Position numbers and translations under genes: made by a program. This document shows positions 10,301-47,847 of a stretch of DNA of 47,847 nt, piece after piece (the first letter of the stretch is position 1; each line of letters begins with the position of its first letter). The notes below the pieces were generated by a model. It worked only from the letters and a program-made list of their open reading frames with translations. It did not search any database and was not told the DNA's origin. Source of the DNA: a virus (taxonomy: Duplodnaviria; Heunggongvirae; Uroviricota; Caudoviricetes); IMG/VR virus record IMGVR_UViG_3300021255_000128, positions 128,001 to 175,847 of that record; one strand, given 5' to 3'.

Positions 10301-11182
10301 AGAAGATGCATTATTATATGTTCCTCCTAATGTGATTCCTCCTGAAAACGTAGAAAGATTGGTTACTCCTAATGTTCCATTTACCTCTAATTTATATGCA
10401 GGATTTGTTTTATTTATACCTACATTACCTCCGTGTATAATATTTACATAATCATTAGCAGAAGTTGCAGTTGTGGATGCAGGACCTCGAAATCGCATAC
10501 CATTTGAATCAACAGTGATACCTCACATTCCAGCATCATATCCTGTTGCATTTGTTGCACCATATCAAATAGACGCAATACCTCCATATTTATGTAATCT
10601 TATACCTTCTGCAAAAGATGCTGTACCGGTAATATTTACTACTGATGAAACAGTTAAAGTTCCTCCAACATTAACGTTACTACTAAATGCACCAGTAGTA
10701 ATGCCTGTTAAAGCTTGTGCAGCAGAACTGGATTGAACTTTAGTAGTACCTATATATAAAGCAGGTATATCCGCAAAAGCAATACTTTCCCAAGAAGGAA
10801 CACTAGAAGTCATTGTTAAATACTTCTTAGTTCCTGTATTTGCTGCTAATTTAGCAAGTGTATTTGCTGCAGAAGCATAAAGTATATCACCTTTAGTATA
10901 AGATGTTAATCCAGTACCGCCTTTAGTTTCATCAATAGCTGTAGCACTTCATGTTCCAGAAGTAATAGTTCCTACTGTAGTGATATCACTAGAACCATTT
11001 CAAGTAGCTCAATAAGCATTTGTACCATTGCTCAAAAGCATCTGTCCTGCTGTTCCAGGGCTCATTGTTGTAGAAGTAGAAGATGAACGAGCCTTTATAG
11101 TATCAACTTGTACAACATCTGCTAAAATTGTATCTGTAACCCTTAAATTACCAGATACAATCGAATCTTTTAATTGTGCCAT
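4340..11182 (-). CDS. Long tail fibre, 2280 aa, with C-terminal peptidase-S74 intramolecular chaperone (code 4)
   Basis: Seven track ORFs share one frame and are separated by TGA. The C-terminus SDIRLKTNIQSL..LNPVTFT(W)..IGMIAQEVE..LDYTKLI plus coiled coil is the S74 signature. Fibre motifs KPTTLSGYGITD, YLPLNGGTLTG, GNVGIGTTTPSAKLDV and LGESSYR(W) are present. Confidence 0.9.
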
Positions 11183-11185
11183 ATA

Positions 11186-13555
11186 TTACATTTCTATTAA
11201 TTGATTTACATTTGCATCAAGATTCTTCTCTACTTCTACTTTTGTATTTCCTTCTAATAATAGATCACTTTCAAAAATTCCAGTTTTGTATAATTTTGTT
11301 TTATCGGTAGTAGAAGTAGGAACCTCTCTAAGACTTAAATTATGAATCGTTACCAATTTTGTAGAAGAAGAATCTGTACCAGTCCATCCATTTAATATTC
11401 TCAATCTTATATATTTACAAGGATTTACACCATCTGTCGCTAAATTAACAATACCTGTATATCTTTGTTTAACTATATCAGATGTTGGTTTTTTAGCAAA
11501 TGTATATACGCAAGCTTGATTTGATCTCGCTGTTTTATTTTCATCATACCTCTCAAATCCTATATAAAATTGATTTCCTGTTGATACAGATATTGTATAA
11601 TCATATATATATTTATTCGTACTTGGATTTATTTCAATGTAATCACTTCCAGCAGAACTTTGACCGTTAAATTCAATTCCCTCTTCTGAATAATTAGTAT
11701 AAGTAGATGTTATACTAGTGTAACCGTTCGTTATATTTCTAACTAACAATTCTCTTCCAACATGTAGTTCATTAAATTCGTAGCTATGCAAATTTCCAGA
11801 TTTATCAATCTTTCCAGAAACTTCATATAATTGTTTTACATCTTCTTCTGATAGGGCTGTTGCATAAATACGGAAATCTGATCATTTGCCTTGTGTATAT
11901 CTATTAGAATTAGCTCTACCTAGCCAAAAAGATTTAAATCCAACTAGAGACGTAGGACAAGAAATAGAACGAACAAATGTTCCATCTATATAAAGTTTTA
12001 TATCTGTTCCATCGTGTGTTAAAGCAATATGTTTTCACGTATTTAATGGAACGTCTTGTGTATTACATGTAATAGAATACAGATTTCCATCTGTCCCTCG
12101 CATTCTAAAACATGTATCTGTATGACTACAAGTTGTTTGATTATAATCATTTGGATTAGTTGTAGAATTAGTAGATGTTGCTCATAGTCCTGATACTTGA
12201 TAACCTCTAGTTTCTACATAAACCCATCCAGTAATAGTCAATCCTTTTGATTCTGGAAAATCAAATACACTCCCAAGTAAGTAAGAGCTATTGTTTTGAA
12301 TACAATTGTCATATCTTGGTGTATCATTCGATATAGTCAAATCACCTGTAATTTCACCATTATTTCCATATCCTGATGAATCGTGTACACTTGTTTCATT
12401 TCTGGAAGAATTTGTATATGGTGTTGGATGATCTTTTATTTCCATCTGAAAATCTCTAAAATAACATACTAGATGAGCACTTTGTCCTGCATTAAGAGAA
12501 CAAAAATAATGTATATAATTATTTTGTGCAGCATTATCAGCAATTGTTCCAGTGTGTCATATACGTTGTCACGTATCTGGCTTACTATAATCATATTGAT
12601 GATATTTTTTATTAGTTGATGTACCTTCAATCGCCTCAAAATTTCCAGATCTTGGCAAAGTTTGTCCAGATGGAACATATAACATTAATGATCTTGTGAC
12701 CGTGTCTCCAACAGAAGCTCCAAAACTTAAAGGTTTTACTAAAATATAGCATCCTCATCAAGAAGAAACATTATCTTTATCAATTGTTAACTTATAACAT
12801 TTGTATCCTGCAAAATTTACAATTTCTACAGTTGTACCATCTATAGTACTTCGTGAAAGATTTGTTGGAACAGCTTTGTTAGTGTTTAAATCATTACGGC
12901 ATGGATCTATATTATCTGTATTTTCCAAATAAGGATCATCTAATTTATAGTGCAAAACCAATCCTTGTGCAATTTCTTTTACTTCTTTAGGAGATAAACA
13001 ATGATCATATAATCTAAAATCATTTAATTTTCCATTACATTTTTCTCCACCATATGTTCCAATAGTCAAATTATCTACACTATATGTTATATAATTCACA
13101 TTCGTTACACGTTTCGCATTTAATTCTCCATCTATATAAATACATACAGTTCCATTATTAAAAGTTACAACATAATGATGTCAAACTCCATATGTAACAA
13201 AACTATCTGGAGAAGCGGATGAAACAGCTATATTATTTCCATTGTTTAATAAAACTCTAACAGCAGCTCCATCTTTACTTATACAAATTCTACCATAAGC
13301 CTGATTAAAAGAAATTATATGAAAACCATAATTTAAGGTGTATCCCTGGTTTAAATTAACTCAACCTGCAACACTAAAATTATATAACGTTTTATTTAAA
13401 GGAGTTGGAAAGGTCATCGATTTTTCTACAAAATTATAACATTTTCCTATTTTTCCATCATTATCTATTACAGCTCCATTATTTGTCACAGTAACATCAG
13501 CACAGCCTTTATTCTTTAAATCCCCATTTAAAGGTAATCACACTTGTAACGCCAT
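11186..13555 (-). CDS. LamG/concanavalin-A-like lectin-domain virion protein, 789 aa (code 4)
   Basis: MALQV(W)[18 protein letters not shown]. Two LamG-like repeats with motifs (W)[27 protein letters not shown] and (W)[14 protein letters not shown]..(W)[11 protein letters not shown]. Three track ORFs share the frame. Confidence 0.85.
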
Positions 13556-37131: not shown

Positions 37132-37392
37132 ATGAACGATAAGATTGAATTTTTAGTACAAAAACTTAAGAATGGATCAGGGATCCATATTAAGAAAAAG
37201 AATCGTGGAAAATTTACTGATTTCTGTGGAGGTAAAGTTACTGAAGCTTGTATTCAACGTGGATTACATTCATCTAACCCTACAACAAGAAAAAGAGCTA
37301 ATTTTGCACGCAATGCTAGACGATGGTCTAAGAAACACCAGTTCGGTGGTATTATAGACGAGCCTATTGTTAAATCTCTTATAAAATGATAA
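37132..37392 (+). CDS. Small basic protein, 85-86 aa, with crAss-type motif IHIKKKNRGKFT..RKRANFARNARRW
   Basis: ORF track entry. Ends AAA-TGA-TAA, so it is made almost identically under either code. Confidence 0.8.
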
Positions 37393-37874
37393 ATTGATTT
37401 AAAAAGAAAACTCCAAGAACTTGAAAATTTGGTGATAATCCAAAAGTACATTGATTGGCAACTAATAGATCAAAATATGATATGACTACATTTTGTAAAA
37501 TTGTATTAACTCAACTTCTAAAAATAGAGAATGTTGAATTAGTAGTTCTTACAAACGATAAGGCCATTTCTAAATTTGATTCTTCTGATATCGAAATGCA
37601 AGCATTATTGCAAGGTGTTCCTGAAAGACATCAATATCGATTAACACTACATAGTAGAATTAACCAATCAATGCTTACTGCAATTATTTGTCATGAAATG
37701 ATTCATCTAAAACAGTATGAAAAAGGTGAGTTAAAATTAGTTCATGGAGGTGCAACATGAAATGGAAAATTTTATGAGAAATGTACGCCATACTTCGATA
37801 GACCTTGGGAAATCGAAGCAAATGACAAAATGTATGAATTAGAAAGAGAAGTATTAAAGTTATACTATGAATAA
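37386..37874 (+). CDS. HEXXH zinc metallopeptidase, 162 aa (code 4)
   Basis: IICHEMIHLKQY..(W)NGK..YFDRPWEIEA. The third zinc ligand region lies beyond TGA 37758. Four in-frame TGAs. Confidence 0.8.
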
Positions 37875-38529
37875 TGTAATAGAGTTAAATCCAGCTACTG
37901 TTACTGGATATAAGTTTTGAGTTTTATTAGATAACGGTCATGCAAAGTCAACTCCTGGAAAACGATCCCCCGTATTTGAAGATGGGAAACAGTTTTTTGA
38001 ATATGAATTTGCAAGAGATATTGTAAATAGAATATCTAAAGAATTAGAAAAATTAAACATTAGTTATAAAATAGTAACTCCAGAAGTAGATAAAGATATT
38101 GCATTATCTACAAGAGCAAATAGAGTAAATAGATATTGTCAGAAACTTGGAAAAAATAATTGTTTACTAGTGTCTGTTCATGCCAATGCATCAGGAAATG
38201 GTAAACAATGGATGCCTGCAAGAGGTTGGAGTGTTTGAACAACAAAAGGAAAAACAAAATCCGATGCATATGCGGATATATTTTATAAAGAGGCTGAAAA
38301 GCTTTTACCTTTATATGGAATGAACGTAAGAAAAGATTTATCTGATGGAGATTATGATTATGAATCTGATTTTACAATTTTATACAAAAGCTGATGCCCA
38401 GCACTAATAACTGAAAATCTTTTCCAAGATAATAAAATAGATTGTGAATTTTTAATGTCTGATAAAGGAAGGGATGTTATTACACAAATTCATATAAACG
38501 CAATAAAACAAATATTAAATATTAAGTAA
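37867..38529 (+). CDS. N-acetylmuramoyl-L-alanine amidase (Amidase_3) endolysin, 220 aa (code 4); absent from the ORF track
   Basis: LDNGH..TPGKRSP..EYEF, LSTRANRVN, VSVHANA, PALITENLF. TGAs at 37918, 38236 and 38392. Confidence 0.92.
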
Positions 38530-38531
38530 TT

Positions 38532-38753
38532 ATGGCAAATAATAATGATTTAAAAGTATTGCACGATGCAGTTGTTGGTCGTGAAATCCCTATGGAAATG
38601 GAATTTGATCCAAAAGAATTAACTTTTCAATATGCATACAAACCTTATGTCGATGACAAAGTTAAAGAAGTTGGATATCCTGAATCAGAAAGTTCTTCTG
38701 AATCAGAAAGTCCTTCTGAATCAAGTTCTGTTCAAAATTCTAATCCAGAATAA
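38532..38753 (+). CDS. Small acidic protein with Ser/Glu-rich tail, 73 aa
   Basis: ORF track entry. ATG 2 nt after the amidase stop, followed by a terminator. Confidence 0.7.
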   Translation: MANNNDLKVLHDAVVGREIPMEMEFDPKELTFQYAYKPYVDDKVKEVGYPESESSSESESPSESSSVQNSNPE

Positions 38754-44818: not shown

Positions 44819-45106
44819 TTATTCGTCTATCTTTTTATCTTCATCTTTTTTAAGCATCTCTTTTAAGAGTTCTGTATCTTTATTTGAACCTCACATTTCA
44901 TTTGGAAATGGAGGTAAAAGTAACATTCCTAAAATGAGTCATAGCAAACAAAAACTTCAATTAGAGCCATATCCATACATTGTAGTAGATATAGTTTTAT
45001 TAAATTGTTCTAAATCTGCTTCTGTTTCAGGTCTCGGAAATACTTTCTTTTGCTCGTCTGTAAAATTACAGCGATCGTATGCTTCTTGAATTGTTTTTAA
45101 GTCCAT
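44819..45106 (-). CDS. Small single-TM protein, 95 aa (code 4); absent from the ORF track
   Basis: MDLKTIQEAYDRC..SN(W)SFCLL(W)LILGMLLLPPFPNEM(W)GS..KIDE*. Three TGAs cluster in and around the TM helix, where Trp is expected. Confidence 0.65.
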
Positions 45107-45150: not shown

Positions 45151-45297
45151 TTAAAAATGGTTTGCTGCTTTATTAGCCATGTAATCCACTACAAACTGTC
45201 TTACATACTGTTGATTAGTGGATTGTTGTAATAATGCCAAAATCTGTTTTAGCATTACATTGTTTTCTCTTAATAACTGCGATTCTTCTCTAGTCAT
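45151..45297 (-). CDS. Small hypothetical protein, 48 aa
   Basis: MTREESQLLRENNVMLKQIL..NHF*, directly downstream of a promoter. Confidence 0.55.
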   Translation of the reverse strand: MTREESQLLRENNVMLKQILALLQQSTNQQYVRQFVVDYMANKAANHF

Positions 45298-45319
45298 AAC
45301 ACGTAAATTTTAATTTTTA

Positions 45320-45350
45320 CAAATGTAATAAAATTTTTGGAAATTTCAAA
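45320..45350 (-). promoter_or_regulatory. Bacteroidota sigma promoter TTTG-N19-TACATTTG
   Basis: Both boxes present. It is the first promoter of the minus-strand block. Confidence 0.7.
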
Positions 45351-45587
45351 AATAATTTTTACCCCGGTAGGTTTTGAATTGGAAATAGGTACAGTTATTG
45401 AATTTTTGTGTTGGAGTATAAAGATGGTACCTAAAATAAAAATGTAGAGGTTGTGAGGGCGAAAAGAGACACTATTTAGAAGACCCCTCCCCCATCGTCA
45501 ATGGAAAATTCATTTCCAATCCAGACTTTTCCTGAGAAAATCGTGGGATGGTACCTACTTTGCATAGTGTTATCTAATATTAATCAA

Positions 45588-45842
45588 ATGATCTGGTACA
45601 AGTATCAAACTCATGACTATATGGACGAAAAGCCGTCCATTGGTTATCGTCTCTTCGCTAATGTGGAGAACGCTCTCAAATGGGAGCACCACATGAACAC
45701 CAATTATTCTGGTGGTACTACTGTTCTTCTTGGTCCAGCGAATCAAGAGGAAGTTCTGAAGTTCGTTAAGGACAACGGACTGAAATTGGATAGTGATACA
45801 CTAGCCAATATTAATAATAAAAGTTATTATCTTAACAATTAA
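45588..45842 (+). CDS. Early-type hypothetical protein, 84 aa (standard-code compatible)
   Basis: Track ORF 45501-45842. ATG 45588 is preferred because it follows an A/T-rich leader. Trp is TGG. Confidence 0.65.
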   Translation: MIWYKYQTHDYMDEKPSIGYRLFANVENALKWEHHMNTNYSGGTTVLLGPANQEEVLKFVKDNGLKLDSDTLANINNKSYYLNN

Positions 45843-45846
45843 CACA

Positions 45847-46536
45847 ATGGGACTTTCGAAAGAAGACCGCAAGCTTCTGTACACCAAGATGTACACAGCT
45901 GTCTCAAAAGCTACGGCTGAGACAAAGAATGCTAATGGTGAGGCTATTAAGGTCACCTATAATGGTAAGGTTACAGATCTCTTTGATGGGATTTGCAATA
46001 ATGCACCCACAATTCGTGCGTTCATGTGGGCTGTATCACACAAGACAGACGCTCTTCCTACGGCTCTATTTCGTGTCGTGAGTCGCGGTGTCAATGGCAC
46101 CGAAATCTCCAGAATCCATTCCGGATTCTATGATGATGAAAGACATCACATCACTGGTACAGCTCTCATTCCATTCATCATGGAGGCTATGAAACTCTGG
46201 GAACCTAAGCCTAGAGCTAAGAAAGAGCTTGAAGCTCCGAAGCTTCCTGTTAAAGTGTTTTCTGAACAAGAAATGATTATGGATCATGTGTGTGAGCTTG
46301 CAACAGATCTCACTGGATTATCTGGAGTATCGGACGACGCTCTTGCATATTTTGGCAAAGATGCAAAAGAGCGTTATGAGAAAGCAAAAGCTGATCTCGA
46401 CGCCTATACAGAAGAAATACAGAGAAGGGAACAGGAACGAGAGAAAGTGGCCAAGAAACAAGAGCTTCTCAAGACGATTTCCGAACTCATCAAAGGTGAA
46501 GGATTCACTCTTGACGAAATAATGCAAATAGTCTGA
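45847..46536 (+). CDS. Early-type hypothetical protein, 229 aa, C-terminal coiled coil; ends in TGA
   Basis: ORF track entry. The next ATG is 1 nt after the TGA. Confidence 0.8.
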   Translation: MGLSKEDRKLLYTKMYTAVSKATAETKNANGEAIKVTYNGKVTDLFDGICNNAPTIRAFMWAVSHKTDALPTALFRVVSRGVNGTEISRIHSGFYDDERHHITGTALIPFIMEAMKLWEPKPRAKKELEAPKLPVKVFSEQEMIMDHVCELATDLTGLSGVSDDALAYFGKDAKERYEKAKADLDAYTEEIQRREQEREKVAKKQELLKTISELIKGEGFTLDEIMQIV

Positions 46537-46537
46537 T

Positions 46538-46702
46538 ATGAGGGAAATGATTAAGAAGGTTCTTCAGGAGCCGGATGCTGTAGATATTCTCTGTGAAACT
46601 TTCAACAAACTTCTCGGCTTGGCATCCTGTTGGGATAGCCTTGACGTGGATGATGTTGAACTCATTTTGAGAGCTAAAATCACAGAACATCAGATCGACT
46701 AG
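46538..46702 (+). CDS. Small hypothetical protein, 54 aa
   Basis: MREMIKKVLQEPDAVDILCETFNKLLGLASCWDS..HQID*TAG. Confidence 0.6.
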   Translation: MREMIKKVLQEPDAVDILCETFNKLLGLASCWDSLDVDDVELILRAKITEHQID

Positions 46703-46771
46703 TCCTACTCGTCTAATTGGTTAAGACGACTCTTTTGGAGTAAACCGCAGTTCGATTCTGTGGTAGGACTC
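46701..46771 (+). ncRNA. tRNA-like element with a shortened anticodon arm (non-canonical or pseudo-tRNA)
   Basis: Acceptor AGTCCTAC/GTAGGACT, D arm CGTC-TAATTGGTTAA-GACG, T arm CGCAG-TTCGATT-CTGTG. The anticodon arm is only ACTC-TTTTG-GAGT. Confidence 0.7.
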
Positions 46772-46792
46772 GAAATCAATCCAAATAAAGAT

Positions 46793-47086
46793 ATGGCACA
46801 AAAATCAAATCTCACTCTCGAAGAGTTTGAAGAAAAGCTCCGAGAAGTCATGGATTTTATCTATGACATCTATCTTCCCAACGATTGTTATGTTCAGAAC
46901 ATGACAAGTGCTCCTATGTACGCAGCTTTCTGTGATGAGAACAAAAAGTCTATCTCAGAAACTGTGATTCTTCTCATGGCCTTTCAGATTATCTGCAAGC
47001 GTTATGGCTTTGTCTATTGGCACTGTGTAGATGAGTTTGTTGAGCGTTTCAAGAAAGTGGTATTGGATTATCTTAATTCCAAATAA
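46793..47086 (+). CDS. Early-type hypothetical protein, 97 aa
   Basis: Track ORF 46760-47086. The GTG start lies inside the tRNA-like element, so ATG 46793 is preferred. Confidence 0.7.
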   Translation: MAQKSNLTLEEFEEKLREVMDFIYDIYLPNDCYVQNMTSAPMYAAFCDENKKSISETVILLMAFQIICKRYGFVYWHCVDEFVERFKKVVLDYLNSK

Positions 47087-47087
47087 C

Positions 47088-47255
47088 ATGAATGCACAAC
47101 AACTTCACAATCTTGCATTAGAAGATGCAAAATCTGCTGTCGCTTCCATAGAGCGGCATGACTACGACAATGCATATCGCAACGCTAAAGCGATATGTGA
47201 GAATCTTCTGCTCCTTCTTGAAGAGGAGATGTACAAAGGTAATAACAATGATTAA
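47088..47255 (+). CDS. Small hypothetical protein, 55 aa
   Basis: MNAQQLHNLALEDAK.., with the ATG 1 nt after the previous stop. Confidence 0.65.
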   Translation: MNAQQLHNLALEDAKSAVASIERHDYDNAYRNAKAICENLLLLLEEEMYKGNNND

Positions 47256-47490
47256 CATGAAGTATAACTACACACTTGTAATTGAAGGATTCATGGGAGT
47301 AGCTCCTATGATATCCTTGAAAGTCATTGGTAATAACTACAAAGAGGTTTCTAACCTCAGTGTAGACATCTTCAGAAAACCTGAAGATGAACTGTTTATC
47401 CATACTGCTCAGCGTATGGTGGAGGAGATTGAAGCAAACGATGACATGCTCGGAGCAATGGAAGCTTATCAAGAATCATTAGTGCCTTAA
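47248..47490 (+). CDS. Small hypothetical protein, ~80 aa
   Basis: The 3' part of track ORF 47158-47490. Starts at ATG 47248 or 47257. Confidence 0.65.
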   Translation: MINMKYNYTLVIEGFMGVAPMISLKVIGNNYKEVSNLSVDIFRKPEDELFIHTAQRMVEEIEANDDMLGAMEAYQESLVP

Positions 47491-47635
47491 CCTACAAACT
47501 ATTCAGAAATAACTTCAAGTTCCTCTATAAATAGGGCGTTTTGCCAATAGACGAGATATGATTGGTCCAACTATGGTTAAATAGTATCTGCCATTGATTG
47601 AATGGTATTTGTTGTACTCTTAATTCTATGCAAAA

Positions 47636-47847
47636 ATGAAAGCAGAAGAATTGAACAAGAAGATTGAAGATGCGATCAAAGGTCGTGTTGAGATCTTCTC
47701 ATGGTCTGAGCTGCAGGATCCTAACAATGCAGCTGCGAAAGCCTTTACGCAGGATAGAGGCGAAACCTTTGAATTCTTCGATGGAGAAGTATTCGAACTT
47801 GTTCCTCAGAACAAGGTCAGATTCGCTCCTAAGAAGTTTGATGGAGG
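47636..47847 (+). CDS. Hypothetical protein, N-terminal part (runs off window): MKAEELNKKIEDAIKGRVEIFSWSELQD..
   Basis: Open frame from ATG 47636 to the window end after an A-rich leader. Confidence 0.7.
   Translation, partial: MKAEELNKKIEDAIKGRVEIFSWSELQDPNNAAAKAFTQDRGETFEFFDGEVFELVPQNKVRFAPKKFDG

What the first reader, a model, noticed from the sequence alone, without database searches (positions are those of the whole stretch)
45300..47847. Sharp genetic-code boundary: the plus-strand early block appears to use the host standard code
Seen: beyond ~45590 the strand flips, codon style changes (many more C/G-ending codons such as CTC, ATC, TTC, AAG), and all 7 Trp codons I found in these genes are TGG. 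TGA 46534-46536 behaves as a stop, with the next ATG 1 nt later. Inference: early genes are readable immediately on infection, while late genes need a phage-induced code switch (suppressor tRNA-Trp(UCA) and/or RF2 inhibition) encoded elsewhere. The uncharacterised early proteins here are candidates for the switch effectors. The sample of Trp codons is small.
Basis: partly seen in the sequence, partly recalled or inferred. Interest (0 to 1): 0.75.

Follow-up and report, generated by a model that had tools for sequence, protein, structure and literature searches.

The report
Early genes avoid recoded TGA codon
In this large crAss-like gut-type phage the block of genes that likely acts first never spells tryptophan with the stop codon TGA, while its replication and particle genes often do, so these likely need the phage's own TGA-reading tRNA; the pattern is real but already described for this phage group.

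Summary
Observation confirmed. The strand flips near 45300-45588, GC3 rises from 0.16 to 0.45, all 7 Trp codons are TGG, and TGA 46534-46536 is a stop: 8 of 11 full-length homologue loci end in TAA or TAG at the equivalent place. The window ends a circular 175.8-kb Zeta-like crAss phage that reads TGA as Trp.

The boundary is sharp only here. The TGG-only + arm runs across the join to C1:45105 (73 genes, 160 TGG, 2 near-terminal TGA), except homing endonucleases. Replication genes further along that strand are recoded (PolB 10 TGA, 0 TGG). The predicted UCA tRNA exists (C1:41581), 3.5 kb before the first recoded host-independent genes. No TrpRS or release factor was found. Nothing ties the early ORFs to the switch; the 229-aa protein looks like a winged helix plus coiled coil.

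The two-code layout is published (Yutin 2021, Borges 2021, Mgcod 2022), and this scan noted it on other DNA. One open point: this UCA tRNA lacks bacterial Trp identity (A73, C1-G72). Relatives carry, at the same locus, an intron-split G73 version or a two-anticodon tRNA, which the scan found before in at least 20 genomes.

The parts
44819..45106 (-). Last TGA-containing gene of the late arm before the strand flip (95 aa under code 4)
   Evidence: 3 in-frame TGA
45151..45297 (-). First gene of the - strand arm, 48 aa, no Trp
45298..45587 (.). Divergent intergenic region, the strand and codon-style boundary; the same boundary is seen in relative G001 (L009:7782-8414)
   Evidence: no excess of sigma-70-like sites (10 found, 10.4 expected)
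45588..45842 (+). Early ORF, 84 aa (start codon inferred), 2 TGG, TAA stop, GC3 0.43
   Evidence: no Pfam or PHROG hit
45847..46536 (+). 229-aa protein, predicted winged-helix-like N-domain (residues about 5-116) plus long C-terminal helix; 2 TGG; ends at TGA
   Evidence: 62 homologues, model pLDDT 81, VIA-align Z 6.2-7.3 to RecQL4, CRP/FNR and IscR winged-helix domains
46534..46536 (+). TGA used as a stop; read-through would add 6 residues before TAA
46538..46702 (+). Early ORF, 54 aa, 1 TGG, TAG stop
46702..46770 (+). tRNA-like element of 69 nt with acceptor, D and T arms and a shortened anticodon arm (4 bp, 5-nt loop); its first base is the last base of the upstream TAG
   Evidence: fold z -2.9; homologues in L011 and L020; missed by ARAGORN and Rfam
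46793..47086 (+). Early ORF, 97 aa, 1 TGG; replaced or skipped in some other strains
47088..47255 (+). Early ORF, 55 aa, no Trp
47257..47490 (+). Early ORF, 77 aa, no Trp
47520..47586 (+). Conserved non-coding element (hairpins; promoter or RNA), shared with distant relatives
   Evidence: no Rfam match
47636..47847 (+). 5' part of a 179-aa early ORF that continues across the circular join to C1:435; 2 TGG, TAA stop, GC3 0.48

Best explanation
45588-47847 is the start of the likely first-expressed operon of a crAss-like phage whose genes there contain no TGA for Trp, so a host with the standard code (inferred) could translate them at once, while TGA-containing replication, particle, lysis and homing-endonuclease genes likely become translatable only after the phage's UCA tRNA accumulates. 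Shown: four tiers of genes (high-GC3 TGG-only; low-GC3 TGG-only; mixed replication block; mostly TGA late arm), TGA read as Trp, one UCA tRNA lying just before the first recoded replication genes, and no TrpRS or release factor found. Inferred: the order in time; a soft switch in which the tRNA competes with host RF2, which is why the few early TGA stops have short read-through tails and why probably abundant proteins (capsid, RNA ligase) avoid TGA; charging by host TrpRS; and high GC3 as a fit to host tRNAs before the phage's own, mostly A/U-reading, tRNAs are made.
For: Tiers as TGA/TGG: immediate-early 8 genes 0/10; middle to C1:45105 65 genes 2/150, both TGAs within 8 codons of the C-terminus; replication 45 genes 74/83; late arm 61 genes 285/155; homing endonucleases 8 genes 30/2. 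The middle tier ends K/E/Q codons in A 73% of the time yet avoids TGA, so base composition does not explain it. TGA=Trp: 148 of 222 aligned TGA sites face W in G001 (42 as TGG), against 155 of 227 for TGG sites and 5 facing R; the thioredoxin WCGPC Trp is TGA. Conservation: G001 switches at the same gene; its 25 orthologues upstream have 67 TGG and 2 TGA. Of 45 downstream orthologue pairs with at least 3 Trp each, 35 use TGA in both, 6 in neither and 4 differ (Fisher 9e-5). A third relative (G015:C119) is largely TGG-only up to its UCA tRNA, apart from endonuclease-like genes and one unassigned gene with 7 TGA, and has a 5-TGA gene shortly after it. The UCA tRNA has a perfect acceptor stem and encoded CCA. 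Read-through tails of 5 TGA-ended early or middle genes are 4-10 residues; 21 of 66 control stops have a tail that short (my gene caller favours short tails).
Against: No expression or timing data. The host is not identified. The UCA tRNA has C1-G72, U3-A70 and A73, and A20 under one numbering of its D loop, whereas G73 is the major Trp determinant in E. coli and B. subtilis and A20/C35/A73 belong to the Arg set (PMC9976931 passages); charging with Trp by a host TrpRS is therefore not assured. In G015:C119 the gene after the 5-TGA gene has 0 TGA and 1 TGG, and the GroEL part has no stop under code 11, so the switch there is not shown to be sharp. The switch in G000 lies 3.5 kb and several TGG-only genes after the tRNA. 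One database homologue of the 229-aa protein is predicted with the ..WYEGND tail.
Confidence: 0.75

Rival explanations
1. Hard switch: one of the uncharacterised early proteins (45588-C1:1098) inactivates RF2 or remodels the ribosome.
For: About 65% of late-arm Trp codons are TGA and single genes carry up to 31, which needs very efficient read-through. The 8 early proteins have no Pfam or PHROG annotation.
Against: The one early protein that was folded resembles winged-helix DNA-binding domains plus a coiled coil (Z under 8), and homologues of it were not shown to be confined to code-4 phages. No release-factor domain in the genome. Short tails after early TGA stops fit tolerated read-through. 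The other 7 early proteins were not folded.
Confidence: 0.15
2. TGA avoidance reflects expression level or speed of translation rather than a timing gate: suppression is present early but incomplete, so abundant proteins avoid TGA wherever they lie.
For: The capsid gene pieces (0 TGA, 6 TGG; PF23898 E 4e-6), RNA ligase (0/7), exonuclease VIII-like (0/7) and others past the switch are TGG-only in both G000 and G001.
Against: All 73 upstream non-endonuclease genes avoid internal TGA, many of them small low-GC3 accessory genes, and the switch falls at the same gene in G001. This is not exclusive of the best explanation.
Confidence: 0.25
3. The host itself reads TGA as sense, and the block is merely foreign DNA recently taken from a standard-code donor.
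For: The block's GC3 is very different from the rest of the genome, and its gene content varies between strains.
Against: TGA is a stop at 46534 and in 4 middle genes. TGG-only status extends over 44 kb of low-GC3 genes. G001, whose 229-aa orthologue is only 37% identical, has the same high-GC3 TGG-only block, so the block is old.
Confidence: 0.04

Closest known systems
Zeta-group crAss-like phages with TGA-to-Trp reassignment (Yutin et al. 2021, PMC7886860; phage Lera, PMC12386605)
   Same: Size within 145-192 kb, many tRNAs, introns and homing endonucleases, an intron-split capsid gene without stops, a UCA suppressor tRNA, and TGA mostly in late genes but also in PolB or helicase (Yutin Fig. 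7 text; Lera text). Lera's UCA tRNA was also typed 'Trp or Arg'.
   Different: No tree with Zeta references was built; the best TerL match is 46% identical. No amber suppressor was found here. In the passages I read I saw no mention of the high-GC3 first block or of a gene-level TGG-only pattern conserved between relatives.
Dual-coded early blocks (Mgcod, bioRxiv 10.1101/2022.06.29.495998)
   Same: Early genes translate almost identically in both codes, the code switch follows a strand switch, and a soft switch is proposed.
   Different: Here the second switch lies in mid-strand, about 3.5 kb after the UCA tRNA, and the replication block is recoded.
Stop-codon recoding as a late-gene gate (Borges et al., bioRxiv 10.1101/2021.08.26.457843; proteomic support for code 15 in PMC9523058)
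   Same: Standard-code early genes, recoded structural and lysis genes, a suppressor tRNA without phage TrpRS or release factor in most phages, and a recoded homing endonuclease within early genes (Agate phages).
   Different: Jade phages carry TrpRS and RF1; this genome has neither. The experimental validation was for TAG, not TGA.

Membership tests
crAss-like phages (Crassvirales) | crAss-type TerL and portal | tested here: met
   phrog_6681 E 3e-68 and phrog_6547 E 2e-47; 14 of the 15 TerL hits listed after the top one or two are crAss-like 'cr' phages or Bohxovirus at about 29-31%
crAss-like phages (Crassvirales) | crAss-type major capsid and ring proteins | tested here: inconclusive
   PF23898 25.8 bits (cut-off 27), PF25702 22.8 and PF24228 17.3, all under the curated cut-offs
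crAss-like phages (Crassvirales) | Primase, DnaB and SNF2-type helicases, AAA ATPase, PolA or PolB | tested here: met
   Toprim, DnaB_C, ResIII/Helicase_C and AAA_24; DNA polymerase phrog_1252
Zeta group | Genome of 145-192 kb | tested here: met
   175,847 bases with a 107-base terminal overlap
Zeta group | High density of introns and homing endonucleases; many tRNAs | tested here: met
   8 endonuclease genes, a split capsid gene, 19 tRNAs by ARAGORN plus intron-split ones read by eye
Zeta group | Monophyly with Zeta references in TerL or capsid trees | not tested
   The Lera record is not held; no tree was built
Code-4 recoded phage with a standard-code early block | In-frame TGA aligns with Trp in conserved genes | tested here: met
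   148 of 222 sites; thioredoxin WCGPC
Code-4 recoded phage with a standard-code early block | Block free of internal TGA, with TGA usable as a stop | tested here: met
Code-4 recoded phage with a standard-code early block | Host uses code 11 and the switch happens during infection | not testable with these tools
   No host link; no RNA holder listed
Bacterial tRNA-Trp identity (for the UCA tRNA at C1:41581) | G73 discriminator and A1-U72, G2-C71, G3-C70 | tested here: not met
   A73, C1-G72, G2-C71, U3-A70 against the E. coli and B. subtilis set in PMC9976931; the set for the unknown host was not examined
Jade-type code-change module (tRNA + TrpRS + RF1) | Phage TrpRS and release factor | tested here: not met
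   PF00579, PF00472 and PF03462: 0 matches in the complete genome, controls positive

The most novel reading that the evidence does not exclude
The site after the GMP-reductase gene is a swappable code-switch cassette holding at least three natural designs of UGA-Trp suppressor in close relatives: a two-anticodon tRNA (G001), an intron-split G73 tRNA (G015:C119) and, here, a tRNA with C1-G72/A73 that comes with an HNH gene which itself needs TGA read-through. This genome's tRNA would then be charged with Trp outside the textbook bacterial identity rules, either by a permissive Bacteroidales TrpRS or with help from an unrecognised phage factor.
Probability: 0.25. Interest if true: 0.65.

Novelty: new member of a known kind. 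Interest (0 to 1): 0.27.

Why it matters
The finding as given adds one more genome to a published pattern. What is useful is the sharper map. The gate falls before DNA replication, not before assembly. It lies just after the suppressor tRNA and at the same gene in a distant relative. This makes a simple test possible: is the tRNA alone enough? How phage opal suppressors are charged is an open question in Borges et al., and this locus offers three natural variants to compare.

Tried and rejected
Relatives of the 229-aa and 560-aa proteins as single queries in viral contigs: none; the alignment found 1 locus there and 12 in metagenomes. Foldseek on the 229-aa model: no match with E at or below 0.001. 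The 156-aa gene right after the UCA tRNA (C1:41671-42141) was considered as a charging helper because it also lies near the tRNA in G015:C119 and is absent from G001. It has 9 homologues, no Pfam hit, Atlas hits only under 0.9 (HTH-like leads) and no significant fold match; the VIA-align and representative searches did not run. Not supported. Atlas for the 189-aa early protein gave only unnamed clusters at 0.89. An intact or split two-anticodon tRNA or tRNA-Trp(CCA) in G000 was sought by T-arm and anticodon-arm motif scans and not found. No RNA holder listed. Sigma-70 promoter scan at chance level. Rfam gave nothing for the two non-coding elements in the block. No complex prediction was sent, as I had no candidate pair worth it. 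Searches for a published two-anticodon phage tRNA listed 2 and 1 papers that look unrelated by title and abstract start; I did not open them. My notebook says 223 aligned sites and three TAG stops; the correct figures are 222 and two (L020 excluded). Twelve doubtful short gene calls (tRNA overlaps, opposite strand) were dropped and 13 calls were re-delimited by hand, most of them TGA-split genes rejoined, before the tier counts.

Full report
Context. The window is C1:128001-175847 of a 175,847-base virus record with a 107-base terminal overlap, rated complete. Code 4 raises long-ORF coverage from 0.3-0.8 to 0.8-1.0 over most of C1:40-170 kb; code 15 does not. TerL, portal and DNA polymerase match crAss-type PHROGs, capsid and ring proteins match Pfam crAss families just under the cut-offs, and size, tRNA number and endonuclease load fit the Zeta group as described in PMC7886860 (passages). 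No tree was built.

The strand flips between 45297 and 45588. The eight + strand genes from 45588 across the join to C1:1098 have GC3 0.45 against 0.16 in the window's - strand genes, and 10 of 10 Trp codons are TGG, 7 of them inside the window. The window's 31 late genes have 176 TGA and 80 TGG. The TGA at 46534 is a stop: of 13 homologue loci, 11 are full length and end TAA (6), TAG (2) or TGA (3) at the equivalent place (two pairs are near-duplicates). Of 62 database homologues, 59 end at the equivalent column, 1 is truncated and 2 are extended, one as ..WYEGND and one with an unrelated tail.

TGA means Trp. Against the complete relative G001, 148 of 222 aligned TGA sites face W (106 TGA, 42 TGG), like 155 of 227 TGG sites; 5 face R. 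The thioredoxin WCGPC Trp is TGA.

The map has four tiers, not two (my own gene calls, with 12 doubtful calls dropped and 13 re-delimited by hand). Immediate-early: 8 genes, 0 TGA and 10 TGG, high GC3. Middle, to C1:45105: 65 genes, 2 and 150, GC3 0.22, 4 TGA stops; both TGAs lie within 8 codons of the end and are probably stops too. Replication block on the same strand: 45 genes, 74 and 83, PolB 10 and 0. Late arm: 61 genes, 285 and 155. Eight homing endonuclease genes have 30 and 2, five of them inside the TGG-only arm. So the boundary is sharp at 45.3-45.6 kb, but the other end lies in mid-strand and is a mosaic, and codon style and TGA avoidance are separate features. G001 has the same strand flip, the same high-GC3 TGG-only block and the same switch gene; 41 of 45 downstream orthologue pairs agree on TGA use, with 6 genes TGG-only in both, including the larger capsid piece and RNA ligase. 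Contig G015:C119 is largely TGG-only up to its UCA tRNA, with exceptions in endonuclease-like genes and one unassigned 7-TGA gene.

The switch. One UCA-anticodon tRNA lies at C1:41581-41657 (Rfam 50.7 bits), 3.5 kb before the first recoded non-endonuclease gene. No TrpRS or release factor was found. The early ORFs have no Pfam or PHROG match. The 229-aa protein folds with mean pLDDT 81; its N-domain aligns to winged-helix proteins at Z 6.2-7.3, rmsd 2.5-3.6, and its C-part to coiled coils. That Z range is common for unrelated folds, so a DNA-binding role is only a lead, but nothing points to RF2 or the ribosome. The other seven early proteins were not folded. TGA-ended early and middle genes have read-through tails of 4-10 residues, against a control median of 19.5 (biased by the caller), which fits a soft switch. 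Timing, host and charging are inferred, not shown.

An open point. The G000 tRNA has C1-G72, U3-A70, A73 and possibly A20, whereas G73 is the major bacterial Trp determinant and A20, C35 and A/G73 belong to Arg identity (PMC9976931 passages). Relatives differ at the same locus. G015:C119 has an intron-split UCA tRNA whose exons closely resemble the G000 body but carry A1-U72 and G73. G001 has a tRNA-Trp with a UCA arm and a second CCA anticodon hairpin. That design occurs in 14 viral contigs (11 distinct), where the two outer pairs of the CCA hairpin, not fixed by my pattern, pair in 11 of 11 with four pair types each, against 2-6 of 11 when slid. Of 6 other carriers sampled, 4 show clear code-4 gains, G014 is too short and G010 shows none; only G001 of the 14 matches the crAss TerL and none has TrpRS (12 are fragments). 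The scan had already noted this tRNA in at least 20 genomes. In contigs of three runs (X3 from the same study as the possible source sample, X5, X6) the HNH gene plus tRNA of G000 is replaced by 101 other letters that the tool did not print.

Comparison. Code change in late genes, in step with a strand switch, dual-coded early genes, suppressor tRNAs without aaRS or release factor, recoded endonucleases in early regions and TGA in Zeta PolB or helicase are all in print: PMC7886860, bioRxiv 10.1101/2022.06.29.495998, PMC12386605 (its supplement searched, no tRNA sequence seen), bioRxiv 10.1101/2021.08.26.457843 and PMC9523058. I read search passages of each, not whole texts; Ivanova 2014 I know only as cited there. 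Supplements of the two bioRxiv papers are closed and may list this genome type or its tRNA. Literature searches. The scan has filed the same pattern on other DNA.

Verdict. A real and well-supported feature, a new member of a known kind. Interest 0.27, most of it for the charging puzzle at the suppressor locus.

Noticed in passing
window 46702-46770 (+): tRNA-like element with a shortened anticodon arm, overlapping or abutting the upstream stop codon in three phages. L011 has a 7-nt loop version; L020 keeps only acceptor and T arm with compensatory changes; four runs carry T46761C, which makes a G-C pair in the T stem. Possibly an RNA-processing signal or a decoy.
   Followed up: partly
window 47520-47586 (+): Non-coding element conserved in L009, L011, L012, L013, L015 and L016, with hairpins and one compensated pair; a promoter or structured RNA; no Rfam match.
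   Followed up: partly
G001:C1:80188-80280 (-); L052-L065: tRNA-Trp with two anticodon arms (UCA, then CCA), covarying, in 14 viral contigs; already noted by this scan elsewhere.
   Followed up: yes
L086:2039-2734 (G015:C119): UCA tRNA split in the anticodon by an intron-like insert holding an endonuclease-like ORF with a TGA at codon 5.
   Followed up: partly
L003:1570-2680 (C1:40570-41680): HNH gene plus UCA tRNA replaced by 101 other letters in contigs of three runs.
   Followed up: partly
L002:2157-2582 (C1:21757-22182): tmRNA-like gene (Rfam RF00023, 33 bits, E 1.5e-11, under the gathering score), missed by ARAGORN.
   Followed up: partly
L001:1490-1563; L009:13415-13568: tRNA-Glu(CUC) at the end of the early block (two copies in G001) with G19-C56 apparently replaced by A19-U56; GAG is enriched in the block.
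   Followed up: no
L001:9376-9685, 10913-11424; C1:20399-20578; L001:16261-16375: Intron-split tRNAs (Leu-UAA, Arg-UCU and a Met-like one, read by eye) and a tRNA-like gene with a long insert in the anticodon arm.
   Followed up: no
L007:13201-14784 (C1:120598-122184, -): Major capsid gene split by a 318-base intron-like insert; TGG-only and with raised GC3, also TGG-only in G001.
   Followed up: partly
window 37132-38753 (+): Four + strand genes inside the late arm, including an endolysin with 3 TGA; the first ends TGA-TAA.
   Followed up: no
L001:1630-2352 (-): Replication-initiator-like HTH gene right after the early block with a TGA at codon 14, a possible gate on replication start; its counterpart region in G001 also has TGA.
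   Followed up: no
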